Source: a phage
Length of the DNA: 64,000 nt
Sequence record: PZ402305.1
Strand: one strand, 5' to 3'
Each line of letters opens with the position of its first letter. Positions within the stretch are counted from its first letter, which is position 1. The notes below the pieces were generated by a model. The model saw only the letters and a program-made list of their open reading frames with translations, made no database searches and had not been told where the DNA came from. Of the stretch, positions 9,284 to 28,813 are shown piece after piece. Position numbers and translations under genes: made by a program.

Positions 9284-9577
9284 ATGATGAACATTACTTT
9301 AGCAACTAAGAATATTTCTGAAACAATTAACGGTTTTGGTGTGATTGTAGCCTTGCACGGTAACAATGAGAAATGGTTGGCTTCTTTTGAAGAGGATCGT
9401 CAGCACAACATCATTTTAGACGCTCCTATAAAAGTTATGCATATTGTTGGTGAAAGCAAAGTGCTCACTTCCTCCCGTTCAAAGGAACAAATTACAAACG
9501 AATTAGTAAAACTGCTTGACAATGTTCTTAACATGTTTGATAATGCACCCATCGACACAAAACGTGTCTTAATGTGA
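9284..9577 (+). CDS. hypothetical protein (97 aa)
   Basis: Track ORF, first gene of plus operon. Confidence 0.6.
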   Translation: MMNITLATKNISETINGFGVIVALHGNNEKWLASFEEDRQHNIILDAPIKVMHIVGESKVLTSSRSKEQITNELVKLLDNVLNMFDNAPIDTKRVLM

Positions 9578-9590
9578 AAGGAGAAATACA

Positions 9591-10082
9591 ATGGCTTACC
9601 CTGACTACATCGACGAACGTGCTACTGGCTTCTTCCGTAACTTCTTAGTCGGTCGTTCTCACGGAGATGATGGTTCCAGTTATAAAACAAGCTGGGATAG
9701 TCAATGTGGCGCTAAGGCTACCAAAACTTTGAAAATGCCGGGTCGTCCGTTGTGCGCGTATTGTGGTAATGAAGCCTTAGCTCTTCAACCTGGTATTGAA
9801 CATGGTGATTATACTATTAAAGGTTACACTTGTGTCTGCAAAGGTGCAATGGACGAGGCGGATTGGGTAAAAGAAAAAGCAGAGATGGAGGAACGTCATA
9901 AACGAGAAGTTTATGAAATGGAAAAACGTATGCCTGTTCCAGATTTGCAAGTTAAGAAAAATATTGTTGCGAAAATGATGGAAAAAGTCCAGAAAGCAGA
10001 GACGGAAGAAGACCTAAACCGTGCACTGGAAAACTTGCGTAATTTTAAAGAAGAAAAAGAGTTGCGCGAGATTATGTGGTAA
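9591..10082 (+). CDS. hypothetical protein (163 aa)
   Basis: Track ORF; Cys cluster then charged helical C-terminus. Confidence 0.6.
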   Translation: MAYPDYIDERATGFFRNFLVGRSHGDDGSSYKTSWDSQCGAKATKTLKMPGRPLCAYCGNEALALQPGIEHGDYTIKGYTCVCKGAMDEADWVKEKAEMEERHKREVYEMEKRMPVPDLQVKKNIVAKMMEKVQKAETEEDLNRALENLRNFKEEKELREIMW

Positions 10083-15018: not shown

Positions 15019-15557
15019 GAATAACTGACGAATATGTATTCTTCTTTTCACATAAAGATGTTTTTAGTAATTGGTATATTGCACCCTTTACAGAAACCGA
15101 ACCAGGTTACAATCAGACATTTAATTGTGTCGAACAATACATGATGTGGCGTAAAGCTTTGCTTTTTAATGACCACAACACTGCACAGGCTATTCTGACT
15201 CATAGTTTGATACGGAAAGATGAGAAGATCCAAGCTTATTACAAACGTATGGGTAGGGCAGTGTCGGATTTTGATAACAACGTATGGGAAGAGAACCGTG
15301 AGCGTATTGTTATGCGAGGTTTATGCTTGAAATATGTACAGAATCCAGATTTGTATGCAGACTTACACCTTTACCAATACAAAACGTTTGTTGAAGCAAG
15401 CCCCTACGATAAGGTTTACGGAATTGGAATGGGGATGTATGAACCAGGGGTGCTAAACCCTGCCACCTGGAAAGGGCAGAATCTTTTAGGCAAATATCAT
15501 AACAAACTGATCGAAATACTTTTCCCAGACAAAATACCGCAAAGACGATATTTGTGA
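15015..15557 (+). CDS. NADAR-domain (DUF1768/YbiA-like) protein
   Basis: FFFSHKDVFSNWY, NCVEQYMMWRKALLFND, ASPYDKVYGIG fit the NADAR fold signature. Confidence 0.7.
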   Translation: MRITDEYVFFFSHKDVFSNWYIAPFTETEPGYNQTFNCVEQYMMWRKALLFNDHNTAQAILTHSLIRKDEKIQAYYKRMGRAVSDFDNNVWEENRERIVMRGLCLKYVQNPDLYADLHLYQYKTFVEASPYDKVYGIGMGMYEPGVLNPATWKGQNLLGKYHNKLIEILFPDKIPQRRYL

Positions 15558-15604
15558 TATTTTAACTTTTTTCATTTTTAGAACAAAGGTGTCACTTTGT
15601 AGCA

Positions 15605-15660
15605 CAGAAATAAGGCTCCTACAACACTGTAGAGAGCCTATTATTTTGTCCTATACAAAC
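15605..15660 (+). terminator. Hairpin terminator after NADAR gene
   Basis: Nested inverted repeat AGGCTC-CTACA-ACAC-TGTAG-GAGCCT followed by T-rich tract; approximate. Confidence 0.45.
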
Positions 15661-15779
15661 ACTTATCTTTTTCAGTTTGCATCATTAGGATTCGATCTAG
15701 GTGGGTTCCTGAAGGTCTGCCAATAAGATTAAAGGTTATCTCAAATTACCCCTACTTGTTATCTCAAAAATTCCTCAAA

Positions 15780-15990
15780 TTATTTAAACTTTTTAAGAAT
15801 TTACAAAAGTGAAAGTTGAAAACCAAAATTTAAAGTTTAGGAAAATTATCTTAAAATGTTAGATACAAAACAAAACTCAAAAGTCAAGGAAAATTTTAAA
15901 AATTTTGCGCGCCCACAGTATTTAAAGTTTTTTTGCTTTTACAAAAATGAAAGTACAAAAGCAAAATTTAAAGTTTACAAAAATTTATGC
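15780..15990. repeat. A-rich direct repeats (iteron-like)
   Basis: Two ~45 bp near-copies ACAAAAGTGAAAGTTGAAAACCAAAATTTAAAGTTTAGGAAAATT and ACAAAAATGAAAGTACAAAAGCAAAATTTAAAGTTTACAAAAATT plus shorter relatives. Confidence 0.55.
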
Positions 15991-16025
15991 AGATGGGAAT
16001 GAGAAGAGTTCTCATATGGAAATGC

Positions 16026-16046
16026 AAATGATAATGATTCGCATTT
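16026..16046. promoter_or_regulatory. Fur-box-like palindrome 1
   Basis: AAATGATAATGATTCGCATTT resembles Fur consensus GATAATGATAATCATTATC. Confidence 0.4.
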
Positions 16047-16083
16047 AGGTTTATAAATGAGATTGATTCTTATTCGATAAGGT

Positions 16084-16104
16084 AAATGATAATCATTCTC
16101 ATTT
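16084..16104. promoter_or_regulatory. Fur-box-like palindrome 2
   Basis: AAATGATAATCATTCTCATTT; 12 contiguous core matches to Fur consensus. Confidence 0.45.
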
Positions 16105-16362
16105 AGAGAATGACGCGCAGGGGCGGTGTTTGTCTCGCGTTCCCGTGTCCCCTCGCCATGTAATAAGAATAACAGATCCAGCCAGGAAAGCAAGCGATTA
16201 TTTCATCTTTACATTTCTTTACAAATATATAGCGCCCAGCCTACCGGCGATCAACCTTCCAACCAGTGCCCCTGGTATGTTAGCCCCGCCTTTACGCCGT
16301 GGGGTGGCGCTTCCTCTTCTGTATGTAAAACAGTATAAGCCCGATCCCTGGGCTTGTCAAGA

Positions 16363-16629
16363 TTATTTTTTGTTTTCTTGCCAGGATAGGACACCTAACC
16401 AAAAATACATATCGCCCCGCGCCCCTGGCGGGATCTTGCTTTCCCCGCCGCCACTGCAAGCCCATAGATAACCATTTGCGAACGTATCAAAATGATCTAT
16501 CTCTTCCACCTTATGATCGCCCAGGTTGAGAACGGTTTCAACCTTTAAGCCCGTTGCGCTTGCTACCTGGTGCACCGTGCCGCCTTGCCAGCCCAATGAG
16601 TGCATAAGGTGTAATGTAGTAGTTGTCAT
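16363..16629 (-). CDS. hypothetical protein (88 aa) in GC-rich island
   Basis: Only minus-strand ORF inside the plus-strand region; local GC clearly above surrounding phage DNA. Confidence 0.4.
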   Translation of the reverse strand: MTTTTLHLMHSLGWQGGTVHQVASATGLKVETVLNLGDHKVEEIDHFDTFANGYLWACSGGGESKIPPGARGDMYFWLGVLSWQENKK

Positions 16630-27163: not shown

Positions 27164-27171
27164 GATTATAC

Positions 27172-27200
27172 AAGGGGCGCACCAAGCGCCCTTTCTTTTT
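27172..27200 (+). terminator. Rho-independent terminator ending the small-gene array
   Basis: GGGGCGCACCAAGCGCCCTTTCTTTTTG; same hairpin as at 22086. Confidence 0.6.
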
Positions 27201-28273
27201 GCCCGAATAATGTTGATAGATTCCGCCTATGGAAAACCGACACAGAACAAAACTGAATAAATAGCGGTATCGAGCTAATCAACCATTAAACGAATAACCA
27301 TACCTCCCAGGGTAACAGGCTGTTAGAGAGCCATTTAGAGCGGTTAAAATCGATCAACAACCAACAAAAAACCATCAAAAACACCCTTTTACCTCCTTTC
27401 TAGTGCAATGATAACCATTATCATCTATCCATGTTTATCTATGCAATATAAGTGCATAACTATAATGTTGATAATAGTTCGCAACAACTAACTAACCAAC
27501 AACCTAAAACAATAAGCAAACTAATCATAATCAAAGGAATAATAGCAAGATGATTGATAACGACAAACAATCAAACCATGATGAATACTAAGCAAGATAA
27601 CGATAACACGACAAAACAACCAACTAACGAACAATAACAAACGAAACCATTAAAATAATAACTATTAGCAAAATAGTGCCTGAATGAAATCATTACAAAA
27701 CGAATCATTCACAGGATCATCATTAGCACGCTATGCCGGACACATAGCGAGCTAATAATAAGCCAACTACACCCCAACAATCATAACCATCGGTGATGGT
27801 TATTTCTTGTTACTGCGTAGCTTGCAATAATTGCAAGCGTAATACGCTTACACTTATTGCGCTGGCTTATTATTAGCATTATATGTAATTACCAAGATCA
27901 TAACATTAGCGCAATAACAATAATCATTGTGGTAATTACAAGATGAAATAATCGCTATCGCTCAAAGATCATTAGCAAGATGAATAATTGCACGTAGCAA
28001 CATGAGCGAATAGCGACAGGTTGCATAGTGTGCACATAGATGTACACGTAGTGTATAAACATACAGGAAAATAAAGGCTAATCTTTTGGGGGCGAATACT
28101 ATCGCGTAGCGATATGTTGAGCACTAAGAGAAGAGATAAACCTTAATCATGGGGGCGTAAATATCCGCAGGATTGCCAACGGCGATCCGGTAGGATGTTG
28201 AGCATCTTCTCTTAAACGTAAATAAAATCAGAAAATTCTTGATTTATTTTAGTTTTTATGTTAATAAACGTTT

Positions 28274-28301
28274 AAATAATAATCATTCTCATATGAATAA
28301 T
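28274..28301. promoter_or_regulatory. Fur-box-like palindrome 3
   Basis: AATAATAATCATTCTCATATGAATAAT shares ATAATCATTCTCAT core with 16084 site. Confidence 0.4.
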
Positions 28302-28450
28302 AGTCTGCTTGTCATGAGCGGGATCAGTTGACAATGTTCCGTCATATGATGAAGTTGCCAAACCATTGATAAATAAGTGTTTGTGTGATTTATAATCAAG
28401 TGGCCCACCTTGTCGCTATGTTGGCATGAGCCTTGCATAAGTCATTGAAT

Positions 28451-28480
28451 ACGAATGATAATTATTCTCATTCGCATGAT
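28451..28480. promoter_or_regulatory. Fur-box-like palindrome 4
   Basis: ACGAATGATAATTATTCTCATTCGCATGAT, near-perfect inverted repeat. Confidence 0.4.
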
Positions 28481-28813
28481 ATTTGAGAATTGTCGCTGCG
28501 TGGACCTGACGGCCCGAAAATTCGCGTTAAGCACTTCTTACGTATGCGCCATGATTTTTGCCATATGATATTGATTCTATTAGATATTCTTGCCATGATT
28601 GCCATGAAACAGGGTGTCCCGAAATAATCTCTCCCCGTAGATATTTTGGGTTACTTTTTATACAAGAGTGGGGTGTCAAAAATAATCGGTATATATGGGA
28701 TAATTGATAGGAATCCCCTATGATAATTCGATTGTAATTCCCTGAGATTGATCGTATGATGTTGGTGATTGATGATTGCCATGAAAGATGGCTAACAATG
28801 AGAGGAGATTATC

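What the first reader, a model, noticed from the sequence alone, without database searches (positions are those of the whole stretch)
15780..15990. A-rich iteron-like direct repeats upstream of the early array
Two ~45 bp near-copies plus shorter relatives lie in a 0.5 kb non-coding stretch after the NADAR terminator and before the Fur-like boxes. The arrangement resembles origin iterons or clustered regulator-binding sites.
Basis: seen in the sequence. Interest (0 to 1): 0.45.

Follow-up and report, generated by a model that had tools for sequence, protein, structure and literature searches.

The report
Conserved three-unit protein-binding repeat array
The A-rich repeats are real and are this phage family's version of a three-site DNA array, most likely bound by a protein, that lies in a conserved non-coding control region bordering the early genes; the same layout occurs in the enigmatic "injection stop" region of phage T5, and its function (replication origin, regulatory boundary or DNA-entry pause) remains untested.

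Summary
The window is a phAPEC8-like coliphage (Phapecoctavirus, Stephanstirmvirinae).

**Observation.** The repeats exist. Two 72-nt copies (15776-15847 and 15914-15985) share 59 of 72 positions; 0 of 2000 shuffles reach this. They flank a degenerate middle copy, giving three ~69-bp units. The core, TTATTTAAAsTTTTT, is essentially unique to this locus in the ~150-kb genome.

**Conservation.**
- All Stephanstirmvirinae genera examined keep the array, with cores spaced 67+75 bp.
- Vequintavirinae-like phages keep the same three-site geometry (141-143 bp in most) with unrelated cores (GTTCTCGATCG; a W70-like group with AACTTGAGAGG has irregular spacing).
- A natural deletion mutant loses both flanks but keeps the array intact.

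**Context.** The order is two TATCTCAAA motifs, the array, Fur-box palindromes, then a GC-rich element with leftward promoters. The locus lies 12.4 kb (8%) inside the right genome end, bordering the early-gene block. T5 Repeat Region 3 has the same motif classes in the same order, orientation and relative position.

**What it is not.** RNA structure, promoters, coding sequence and a terminase site were tested and not supported.

**Reading.** It is an iteron-like array of binding sites for a lineage-specific protein. An origin-type role is my first guess (~0.3). A regulatory boundary (~0.28) and a T5-like entry pause (~0.1) remain open.

The parts
15547..15563 (+). Two GATATTTK motifs (GATATTTG, GATATTTT) at the stop codon of the NADAR gene. 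This is the left edge of the conserved non-coding module.
   Evidence: Read. Two to four copies of the same motif sit at the same place in Vequintavirinae-like, W70-like and rV5-like loci.
15612..15649 (+). Intrinsic terminator ending the upstream (+) operon. Its hairpin could also stop leftward transcripts.
   Evidence: Annotated as a terminator in phAPEC8 and ASO2A at the equivalent position. Sequence read.
15737..15768 (+). Pair of TATCTCAAA motifs (15737-15745 and 15760-15768), 23 bp apart, at a predicted strong intrinsic bend.
   Evidence: Two of the three genome copies of the motif lie here. The second-highest predicted curvature peak of the 64-kb window is at 15765. The same pair occurs in T5 as direct repeat A copies 2 and 3, in HildyBeyeler and in several Vequintavirinae-like loci.
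15776..15844 (+). Unit 1 of the array. Core site TTATTTAAACTTTTT at 15780-15794; second, weaker site ATTTAAAGTTT at 15828-15838.
   Evidence: 100% identical in five close relatives and 81% identical to phiWec181, against 53% for the neighbouring spacer.
15845..15913 (+). Unit 2, degenerate in Phapecoctavirus. The core is replaced by TATCTTAAA (15847-15855). It ends in TTTTAAAAATTTTGCGCGCCCACAG, a junction shared with other lineages.
   Evidence: (D4). An intact middle core is present in Justusliebigvirus and in the Klebsiella phage phi1_175008. 61% identical to phiWec181.
15914..15990 (+). Unit 3 of the array. Core GTATTTAAAGTTTTT at 15918-15932; second site ATTTAAAGTTT at 15966-15976.
15998..16103 (.). 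Four Fur-box-like 19-bp palindromes in 29-bp register (15998, 16027, 16056, 16085). This is the neighbouring block of the same module.
   Evidence: D1; 16 of 19 to GATAATGATAATCATTATC. The number varies from 1 to at least 5 between lineages. blastn matches to T5-like phages.
16107..16360 (-). Conserved GC-rich element carrying two predicted leftward sigma-70 promoters that fire toward the Fur boxes and the array. P1: -35 at 16360-16355, -10 at 16337-16332. P2: -35 at 16193-16188, -10 at 16171-16166.
   Evidence: TTGACA-17-TATACT, 11 of 12. P1 is kept at 9-12 of 12 in 17 lineages; P2 in most. 91-99% identical to phiWec181. No Rfam family. Weak covariation, with G-U pairs only on the minus strand.
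16363..16629 (-). Small conserved ORF (88 aa) abutting the element. Its terminator hairpin lies in the P1 spacer.

Best explanation
**What it is.** The A-rich repeats act as DNA, not as RNA or protein. They form a three-unit array of sequence-specific protein-binding sites.
- Each ~67-75-bp unit carries a core centred on a short palindrome (TTATTTAAAsTTTTT, with TTTAAA at its heart).
- Each unit also carries a weaker related site about 45 bp downstream.
- A lineage-specific, presumably phage-encoded, protein is inferred to occupy the three cores cooperatively and build a fixed-geometry nucleoprotein complex.

**Where it sits.** The array is one block of a ~0.8-kb composite cis-acting region. 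The order is: GATATTTK motifs, terminator, a bent TATCTCAAA pair, the array, Fur boxes, a GC-rich element with leftward promoters, and a small conserved ORF. The region lies at the inner border of the terminal early-gene block, 12.4 kb (8%) from the right genome end.

**My committed guess for the role.** It is an origin-type initiation site. The complex would form on the most easily melted DNA of the region. It would be activated by leftward transcription from P1 and P2 and gated by Fur bound between the promoters and the array.

**Shown:** the repeat, its uniqueness in the genome, its conservation, geometry and concerted evolution, its position, and the T5 parallel.

**Inferred:** protein binding, the identity and source of the protein, the transcription, Fur binding, and above all the origin function.
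For: **The repeat is real and confined to one locus.**

**The geometry is kept while the sequence is replaced.**
- Cores are spaced 67+75 bp in Justusliebigvirus and in the Klebsiella phage phi1_175008.
- First-to-third spacing is 138-139 bp in Phapecoctavirus.
- Spacing is 74-78 + 63-68 bp (141-143 in total) in most phages whose core is GTTCTCGATCG; two metagenome loci have 85+71.
- Other core classes occur in W70-like phages and in L042.

**Concerted evolution within genomes.** Both second sites are TTCTAAAGTTTACG in phiWec181 and ATTTAAAGTTTA here. L041 has ATTATTAAAAGTTTTT in two units. This is the pattern of lambdoid ori iterons with their O proteins, and of operators with their repressors (established knowledge).

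**Purifying selection.**
- Units 1 and 3 are 100% and 99% identical in close relatives, and 81% and 77% identical to phiWec181, against 53% for the spacer.
- EP57 has deletions of 123 bp and 66 bp that stop at the two edges of the array.

**Origin-like traits.**
- It is a single site per genome.
- It is a composite of several repeat classes, including a host-factor class (Fur boxes).
- 15706-15905 is the least stable 200-bp window of the 64 kb, and a strong predicted bend lies at 15765.
- A conserved strong promoter points into the region, with no credible ORF downstream.
- The T5 counterpart carries DnaA boxes described as reminiscent of oriC.

**Not RNA.** No Rfam hit; folding z-scores of +0.75 and +1.33.
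Against: **Against an origin role.**
- No DnaA box lies between 14 and 18 kb.
- No initiator-like gene is adjacent. The neighbours are an AAA ATPase of unknown role, a CapR/HNH-type endonuclease and NADAR. The helicase and polymerase genes are more than 30 kb away.
- AT-richness and low stability are not conserved. The array is 56-67% A+T in the other lineages, so a DNA-unwinding role cannot be the conserved property.
- There is no general 10-11-bp A-tract phasing.
- T5 origins were mapped by electron microscopy near the genome centre, not at 8% (Davison preprint).
- A leftward transcript through the array would be U-rich, which is poor for a persistent R-loop (inference).

**Against a promoter-proximal role.** The distance from the array to the promoters varies, about 140-195 bp.

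**General gaps.** No binding protein has been identified. All promoter calls are consensus matches only.
Confidence: 0.3

Rival explanations
1. **Regulatory boundary or operator array.** A phage regulator binds the three sites, possibly looping to the TATCTCAAA pair or the Fur boxes. It would control or insulate transcription at the junction between the upstream operon and the early-gene block. For example, it could block the leftward P1/P2 transcripts, or switch the face-to-face promoters in the Fur-box and GC-rich region.
For: - The array lies between a terminator and conserved leftward promoters, next to operator-like Fur boxes.
- In many lineages a plausible rightward promoter, TTGAAT-18-CAGAAT, has a Fur box in its spacer (read).
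- Three cooperative sites whose specificity co-evolves is also the classic operator-repressor pattern.
- The site is unique in the genome.
- An adjacent small conserved ORF belongs to the module.
Against: - The distance to every candidate promoter varies by tens of bp between lineages, while the internal geometry is fixed.
- The neighbouring small protein is nearly identical in its N-terminal half between lineages with different cores. It is therefore not the specificity partner, and it has no recognisable DNA-binding fold.
- No regulator gene has been identified.
- It is not obvious why a virulent phage would diversify operator specificity.
Confidence: 0.28
2. **T5-like DNA-entry pause (injection-stop region).** The terminal 12.4 kb with the early genes would enter first. 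Entry would pause at this module, for instance because a protein bound to the array inside the virion cannot pass the tail, or because host Fur captures the boxes. The array would be the counterpart of the T5 direct repeats D.
For: **Same motif classes, order and orientation as T5 Repeat Region 3.**
- In T5 the order is: pre-early genes, DnaA-box inverted repeats, Fur-like palindromes E-J (9468-9666), direct repeats D (DRD), then two TATCTCAA motifs (10040, 10060).
- Here the order is: early genes, GC-rich element, Fur boxes, array, TATCTCAAA pair.

**Same relative position.**
- T5: 7.9% from the left end.
- Here: 8.2% from the right end (28529). That end is defined by at least seven records ending there with a 329-bp repeat.
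- phiWec181: 9.5%.

**Other points.**
- blastn similarity between the Fur-box blocks.
Against: - No homologues of T5 A1, A2 or dmp exist in the genome (tblastn).
- The terminal repeat is 329 bp, not 10 kb.
- There are no DnaA-box inverted repeats.
- The T5 DRD copies are nine and irregularly spaced, unlike the fixed three-site array.
- The module-to-end distance varies with gene content, 12.4-14.6 kb.
- These are contractile-tailed phages with no reported two-step transfer.
- Which end enters first is unknown.
Confidence: 0.1
3. **Cluster of sigma-70 promoters or UP-element-like A/T DNA.** The repeated units would be tandem early promoters or upstream activating DNA for the Fur-controlled promoter.
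For: The consensus scan gives TTTACA-18-CAAAAT in units 1 and 3 and TTTAAA-17-TAAAAT at 15829-15857, each 9 of 12. Twelve sites were found in the region against 4.0 +/- 2.0 in shuffles.
Against: - The matches are weak and fall in A/T-rich DNA.
- The hexamers are not conserved at the same unit positions in Justusliebigvirus, in phi1_175008 or in the CGATCG-type units. The conserved part is the core motif.
- A promoter motif for a phage-modified polymerase would recur across the genome, but the core is confined to this locus.
- A fixed first-to-third spacing is not required of independent promoters.
Confidence: 0.05
4. **Neutral leftover.** The repeats would be a recent local duplication in low-complexity A-rich spacer DNA, with no function.
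For: The region is AT-rich and non-coding. The middle copy has decayed in Phapecoctavirus.
Against: - The array is kept across genera and subfamilies with fixed geometry.
- It evolves in concert.
- It is better conserved than its flanks.
- It is spared by natural deletions.
Confidence: 0.02

Closest known systems
Phage T5 Repeat Region 3 (the non-coding 'injection stop signal' region, AY587007 9194-10409), in particular its direct repeats D
   Same: - A non-coding block bordering the terminal early (pre-early) genes, about 8% from a genome end.
- The same motif classes in the same order and orientation: Fur-box-like palindromes, then a lineage-specific direct-repeat array, then a pair of TATCTCAA(A) motifs.
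- The function is unknown in both.
   Different: - T5 has nine irregularly spaced 15-bp repeats (TGTGCAAATCCGACA), not three ~70-bp units.
- T5 has DnaA-box inverted repeats where this phage has a GC-rich promoter element.
- The T5 region lies inside a 10-kb terminal repeat and next to a site-specific nick.
- T5 encodes A1 and A2, which this phage lacks.
Iterons of lambdoid phage and theta-plasmid origins (lambda ori ITN1-4 with the O protein; R6K, P1, pSC101)
   Same: - Several direct copies of a site with internal symmetry, at fixed spacing.
- One locus per replicon.
- Specificity that differs between relatives while the arrangement is kept.
- Nearby host-factor sites and bent or easily melted DNA.
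   Different: - Units are about 70 bp rather than about 20 bp, and only three.
- No initiator gene overlaps or adjoins them.
- No DnaA boxes.
- The AT-rich character is not conserved in sister lineages.
- Origin activity is untested.
Positional counterparts in Vequintavirinae-like phages (PVP-SE1, CR3/CR8, Mydovirus, Av-05-like, W70-like, rV5-like)
   Same: - The same place in the same composite module.
- Three sites 141-143 bp from first to third in most of them.
- The same A(n)T(n)-GC-rich junction before the last unit.
- The same neighbours: Fur boxes, the GC-rich element and the small ORF.
   Different: - The core sequence is unrelated: GTTCTCGATCG, AACTTGAGAGGTTTTTC or AGTACTCGATCT.
- The arrays are not A-rich, at 56-67% A+T.
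- The W70-like and rV5-like arrays depart from the three-site spacing.
Lambda cosB (R3-I1-R2-R1), the terminase small-subunit sites
   Same: Three repeated protein sites combined with a bend.
   Different: cosB abuts the cut site. Here the genome end is 12.4 kb away.

Membership tests
Iteron-type replication origin | Several direct repeats of one specific sequence at regular spacing, at a single locus of the replicon | tested here: met
   Three units. The cores are unique to the locus and the spacing is conserved.
Iteron-type replication origin | Adjacent AT-rich DNA-unwinding element | tested here: inconclusive
   The least stable 200 bp of the window is 15706-15905. However, homologous arrays in other lineages are only 56-67% A+T.
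Iteron-type replication origin | Cognate initiator protein, usually encoded at or next to the iterons | tested here: not met
   The neighbours are an AAA ATPase of unknown role, an endonuclease, NADAR and an 88-aa protein of unknown fold. No Rep-, O- or DnaA-like gene is present.
Iteron-type replication origin | Host initiation-factor sites (DnaA boxes) | tested here: not met
   No TTWTNCACA motif between 14 and 18 kb. The T5 counterpart does have them.
Iteron-type replication origin | Replication starts there | not testable with these tools
   Needs marker-frequency or nascent-strand mapping.
T5 injection-stop region (Repeat Region 3) | Non-coding block with Fur-like palindromes, a direct-repeat array and a TATCTCAA pair, in that order, bordering the terminal early genes | tested here: met
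T5 injection-stop region (Repeat Region 3) | Position about 8% from the genome end | tested here: met
   12.4 kb from the right end at 28529, in a genome of about 151.7 kb. 9.5% in phiWec181.
T5 injection-stop region (Repeat Region 3) | Lies within a ~10-kb terminal repeat | tested here: not met
   The terminal repeat is about 329 bp, at window 28201-28529.
T5 injection-stop region (Repeat Region 3) | DnaA-box inverted repeats IRD'/IRC' | tested here: not met
T5 injection-stop region (Repeat Region 3) | A1 and A2 proteins needed for second-step transfer | tested here: not met
   tblastn of T5 A1, A2 and dmp against the window plus the rest of the P3322 genome gave only noise, E of 0.85 or more.
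T5 injection-stop region (Repeat Region 3) | DNA entry pauses there | not testable with these tools
   Needs a blender or qPCR entry assay.
Sigma-70 promoter cluster / UP element | Conserved -35 and -10 hexamers at a fixed place in each unit | tested here: not met
   Only 9-of-12 matches in the window, and they are not conserved in other genera or core classes.
Fur boxes | Match to GATAATGATAATCATTATC | tested here: not met
   No match of 14 of 19 or better inside 15776-15990. The matches start at 16024.
Structured non-coding RNA | Rfam family membership, or folding better than shuffled sequence | tested here: not met
   No relevant Rfam hit at E of 5 or less. Folding z-scores are +0.75 and +1.33.
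Terminase recognition site (cos/pac) | Adjacent to the physical genome end | tested here: not met
   The ends map to 28201 and 28529.

The most novel reading that the evidence does not exclude
The composite module (TATCTCAAA pair, lineage-specific repeat array, Fur boxes) would be a widespread 'first-segment boundary'. Under this reading, phAPEC8-like and rV5-like myoviruses, like T5, deliver or expose the terminal ~8% of the genome with the early genes first. The repeat array, bound by a lineage-specific (possibly virion-borne) protein, would be the physical stop. The converse reading is also novel: the repeats in the T5 'injection stop' region would be a general origin or regulatory hub shared with unrelated phage families, and not the stop signal.
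Probability: 0.12. Interest if true: 0.85.

Novelty: new variant of a known kind. Interest (0 to 1): 0.55.

Why it matters
**No annotation or paper found covers this.**
- None of the records inspected annotates these repeats. The only repeat features found (anhysbys, tuntematon) cover the neighbouring Fur-like palindromes.
- No paper found in the searched library describes the repeats or the module.

**The comparative picture gives a defined target.** It delineates a roughly 0.8-kb cis-acting region conserved across two large subfamilies of therapeutic-candidate coliphages. It ties that region to the T5 Repeat Region 3, whose role in two-step injection has been unexplained for over 50 years.

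**It makes specific experiments possible.**
- Swap the core classes between phages.
- Fish for the binding protein.
- Map replication starts.
- Run DNA-entry assays.

**It has practical value.** Knowing whether this is the origin or a control hub matters for engineering these phages and for interpreting insertion-free intergenic regions in transposon screens.

Tried and rejected
- **Tandem Repeats Finder:** nothing found. The good copies are not adjacent.
- **Rfam at permissive E-values:** no relevant family.
- **RNA folding of both strands of the array:** worse than shuffles. RNA element rejected.
- **Coding potential:** only chance ORFs, and a frameshift in ECO340P2. Rejected.
- **Helically phased A-tracts or DNA wrapping:** no 10-11-bp AA/TT periodicity except in PVP-SE1. 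Rejected as a conserved property.
- **A-richness as the functional property:** the arrays in sister lineages are 56-67% A+T. Rejected.
- **Terminase site or terminal-repeat boundary:** the ends map 12.4 kb away. The phiWec181 record ends are assembly breaks, so I mapped its repeat homologue instead.
- **DnaA boxes:** none.
- **T5 A1, A2 and dmp homologues:** none.
- **Plasmid relatives that might reveal an origin:** the only hit is a 137.5-kb 'plasmid' that is really an rV5-like phage genome.
- **Bacterial genomes:** one metagenome-assembled contig only.
- **Link to the insertion-free ~2-kb intergenic region of Bas54:** I could not locate the Bas54 genome (a wrong accession guess). rV5 sensu stricto phages were not among the blast hits. 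Unresolved.
- **IMG/VR scan with the core plus flank:** mostly chance hits in unrelated AT-rich contigs.

Full report
**Identity of the window.** The region 15500-16400 matches 144 phage records. The best is 99.3% identical (Escherichia phage vB_EcoM-P3322), and phAPEC8 is 97.6% identical. The window is therefore part of a ~150-kb phAPEC8-like myovirus (Phapecoctavirus, Stephanstirmvirinae).

- Two 72-nt copies lie at 15776-15847 and 15914-15985, 82% identical and 138 bp apart. A weaker 33-nt relative lies between them.
- 59 of 72 matches compares with 37.7 +/- 1.8 in 2000 dinucleotide-preserving shuffles of the local AT-rich DNA; none reached the observed value.
- The 11-mer ATTTAAAsTTT occurs four times in 64 kb, all here and all on the + strand, against 0.48 expected. 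Only one further copy occurs in the other ~88 kb of a near-identical genome.
- Tandem Repeats Finder sees nothing, because the two good copies are separated by a decayed one.
The best of these matches the E. coli Fur consensus at 16 of 19 positions.

**Anatomy of the array.** Aligning the units of four genera gives a unit of 67-77 bp. It starts with TTATTTAAAsTTTTT and carries a weaker related site, (G/C)AAAAnCAAAAnTTAAAnT, about 45 bp downstream.
- Justusliebigvirus (PHB05, phi92, Nernie and two metagenomic genomes) has three intact cores spaced 67 and 75 bp. So does the Klebsiella phage phi1_175008.
- In Phapecoctavirus and the phiWec181 group the first and third cores are 138-139 bp apart. 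The middle core has been replaced by TATCT(C/T)AAA.

**Evidence that the array is functional.**
- The copies evolve in concert. Both second sites read TTCTAAAGTTTACG in phiWec181 and ATTTAAAGTTTA here. A metagenomic relative has ATTATTAAAAGTTTTT in two units.
- Units 1 and 3 are 100% and 99% identical among five close relatives. They are 81% and 77% identical to phiWec181, where the adjacent spacer is 53%.
- The isolate EP57 carries a 123-bp and a 66-bp deletion that end at the two edges of the array. The array itself is intact, with one substitution in 224 bp.

**The array has counterparts with unrelated sequence.** I scanned viral and metagenome collections for the conserved GC-rich element next to the Fur boxes.
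- Every locus with enough flank shows the same layout: small GATATTTK repeats at the end of the upstream gene, often a TATCTCAAA pair, a repeat array, one to at least five Fur-like palindromes, then the GC-rich element.
- In PVP-SE1-, CR3/CR8-, Mydovirus- and Av-05-like phages the core is GTTCTCGATCG. The spacing is 74-78 plus 63-68 bp, or 141-143 bp in total, in most loci; two loci have 85+71. This is the same span as the 142 bp of Stephanstirmvirinae.
- W70-like phages use GAACTTGAGAGGTTTTTC, in four to five irregularly spaced copies.
- L042 has yet another repeat.
- The A(n)T(n)-GC-rich junction before the last unit is shared between the classes.

Fixed geometry with swapped specificity is what one expects of sites co-evolving with a dedicated DNA-binding protein.

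**A-richness is not the conserved property.** The A+T content of the arrays ranges from 0.56 to 0.81, and 10-11-bp A-tract phasing is absent in most lineages.

**Readings that were tested and not supported.**
- Structured RNA: there is no relevant Rfam hit, and both strands fold worse than shuffles.
- Coding sequence: only chance ORFs are present, and the longest is frameshifted in a relative.
- Conserved sigma-70 promoters: the 9-of-12 matches in units 1 and 3 are not kept in other genera. A phage-specific promoter motif would recur across the genome, but the core does not.
- Fur boxes: no match inside the array.
- Terminase site: see the next paragraph.

**Position in the genome.**
- Korf et al. 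reported a 328-bp terminal repeat for phage Schickermooser (PMC6563267). Its record ends map to window 28201 and 28529.
- At least seven records from several laboratories end or start at the same base and hold the segment twice.
- The array therefore lies 12.4 kb, or 8.2% of about 151.7 kb, inside the right genome end.
- The interval between holds the array of small early genes, each with its own promoter and 5' stem-loop.
- In phiWec181 the distance is 14.6 kb, or 9.5%.
- Fur-like palindromes occur at only two places in the genome: this module, and the terminus region (27407, 28275 and 28454, the last two inside the repeat). The three terminal boxes are conserved in phiWec181.

**Parallel with T5.** The Fur-box block gives blastn matches to T5-like phages.
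- In HildyBeyeler and T5 the block lies in Repeat Region 3, the non-coding region held to contain the injection stop signal.
- Going away from the nearest genome end, T5 has: pre-early genes, DnaA-box inverted repeats (9332-9462), Fur-like palindromes E-J (9468-9666), a site-specific nick at 7.9%, direct repeats D, then direct repeat A copies 2 and 3. The last two are two TATCTCAA motifs 20 bp apart.
- This window has: early genes, small ORF, GC-rich element, Fur boxes, three-unit array, then two TATCTCAAA motifs 23 bp apart. The strand orientation is the same.
- The T5 papers I read do not mention Fur. They still describe the stop signal only as a repeat-rich non-coding region.
- Several features differ. 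T5 direct repeats D number nine and are irregularly spaced. T5 has a 10-kb terminal repeat and DnaA boxes, and it encodes A1 and A2. The window has no DnaA boxes and no A1, A2 or dmp homologues.

**Neighbours of the array.**
- The GC-rich element (16107-16360) is 91-99% identical even to phiWec181.
- It carries a leftward promoter, TTGACA-17-TATACT, conserved at 9-12 of 12 in 17 lineages. A second, weaker leftward promoter is present in most. Both point at the Fur boxes and the array, with no credible ORF downstream.
- Covariation is weak. G-U pairs occur only on the minus strand.
- The abutting 88-aa ORF belongs to the module in most lineages. It has no family annotation and no structural neighbour. 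Its N-terminal half does not vary with the core class.
- Physically, 15706-15905 is the least stable 200-bp stretch of the window. The second-highest predicted bend is at the TATCTCAAA pair (the wedge parameters were recalled from memory).

**Interpretation.**
- Well supported (about 0.85): the repeats are a cis-acting array of three phased binding sites for a lineage-specific protein, embedded in a conserved composite control region at the border of the terminal early block.
- The role is inferred only. I commit to an origin-type initiation site as the single most likely role (about 0.3). The reasons are: one locus per genome; a composite of several site classes, including a host-factor class; specificity that co-evolves as in lambdoid ori-O pairs; promoters firing into non-coding DNA; local ease of melting; and DnaA boxes in the T5 version.
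- Against an origin: no initiator gene or DnaA boxes here, non-conservation of AT-richness, and electron-microscopy mapping of T5 origins near mid-genome.
- A regulatory or insulating operator array is nearly as likely (about 0.28).
- A T5-like entry pause is possible but lacks the T5 machinery (about 0.1).
- Promoter-cluster and neutral readings are unlikely.

**Novelty and value.** Neither the array nor the module is annotated in the records I inspected, or described in the library I searched. A transposon screen reports an insertion-free ~2-kb intergenic region in the Vequintavirus Bas54, but I could not tie it to this locus. As an iteron-like array this is a new variant of a known kind. 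The cross-family link to the T5 stop-signal region is the part a specialist would find surprising and testable.

Noticed in passing
window 15998-16103; 27407-27425; 28275-28293; 28454-28472: Fur-box-like palindromes (AATGAkAATnATTmTCATT, up to 16 of 19 to the E. coli Fur consensus) occur at only two places in the ~150-kb genome: four in exact 29-bp register next to the array, and three at or inside the 329-bp terminal repeat. The same palindromes make up T5 'palindromes E-J / direct repeat C'. The T5 papers I read never call them Fur boxes. Fur titration or Fur gating by a virulent phage is an open possibility.
   Followed up: partly
window 16107-16360 (minus strand): A highly conserved GC-rich non-coding element, shared by Stephanstirmvirinae, Vequintavirinae-like and Av-05-like phages. 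It has one strongly conserved and one weaker leftward sigma-70 promoter, no Rfam family, and weak covariation favouring a minus-strand RNA. One relative (L026, Raoultella phage Ro1-like) has an HNH-endonuclease gene inserted inside it.
   Followed up: partly
[not shown]
   Followed up: partly
window 28201-28529 and 27164-28200: The physical genome ends, a ~329-bp direct terminal repeat, map here. At least seven public records end or start at 28529 or 28201. The repeat is preceded by a 1-kb A/C-rich non-coding stretch. The least stable 100-bp window of the 64 kb starts at 28204.
   Followed up: partly
L065 (Escherichia phage EP57, OR544956.1), equivalent to window 15638-15760 and ~15985-16050: A natural isolate has a 123-bp and a 66-bp deletion. 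They remove the terminator's 3' half, the spacer, one TATCTCAAA motif and two Fur boxes, but stop at the edges of the three-unit array.
   Followed up: yes
window 16738 onward (for example L001 4276-4295, 4915-4934, 5804-5823, 6820-6839): Each small early gene has its own sigma-70-like promoter followed by a conserved 5' stem-loop (GTAGGGCGGCAATGGTGCCGCTCAC). In the phAPEC8 record these stem-loops are annotated as 'PHIRE promoters'. The cassette-like organisation recalls the promoter-early stem-loops of T4-type phages.
   Followed up: no
L061 (CP057073.1, E. coli 'plasmid' pRHB39-C03_2, 137.5 kb): This record in the plasmid collection appears to be an rV5-like phage genome. It carries a CGATC-type version of the repeat array and Fur-box module.
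   Followed up: partly
window 15547-15563: GATATTTK motifs at the stop codon of the upstream gene recur (2-4 copies) at the left edge of the module in all lineages, even though the upstream gene differs between them.
   Followed up: no
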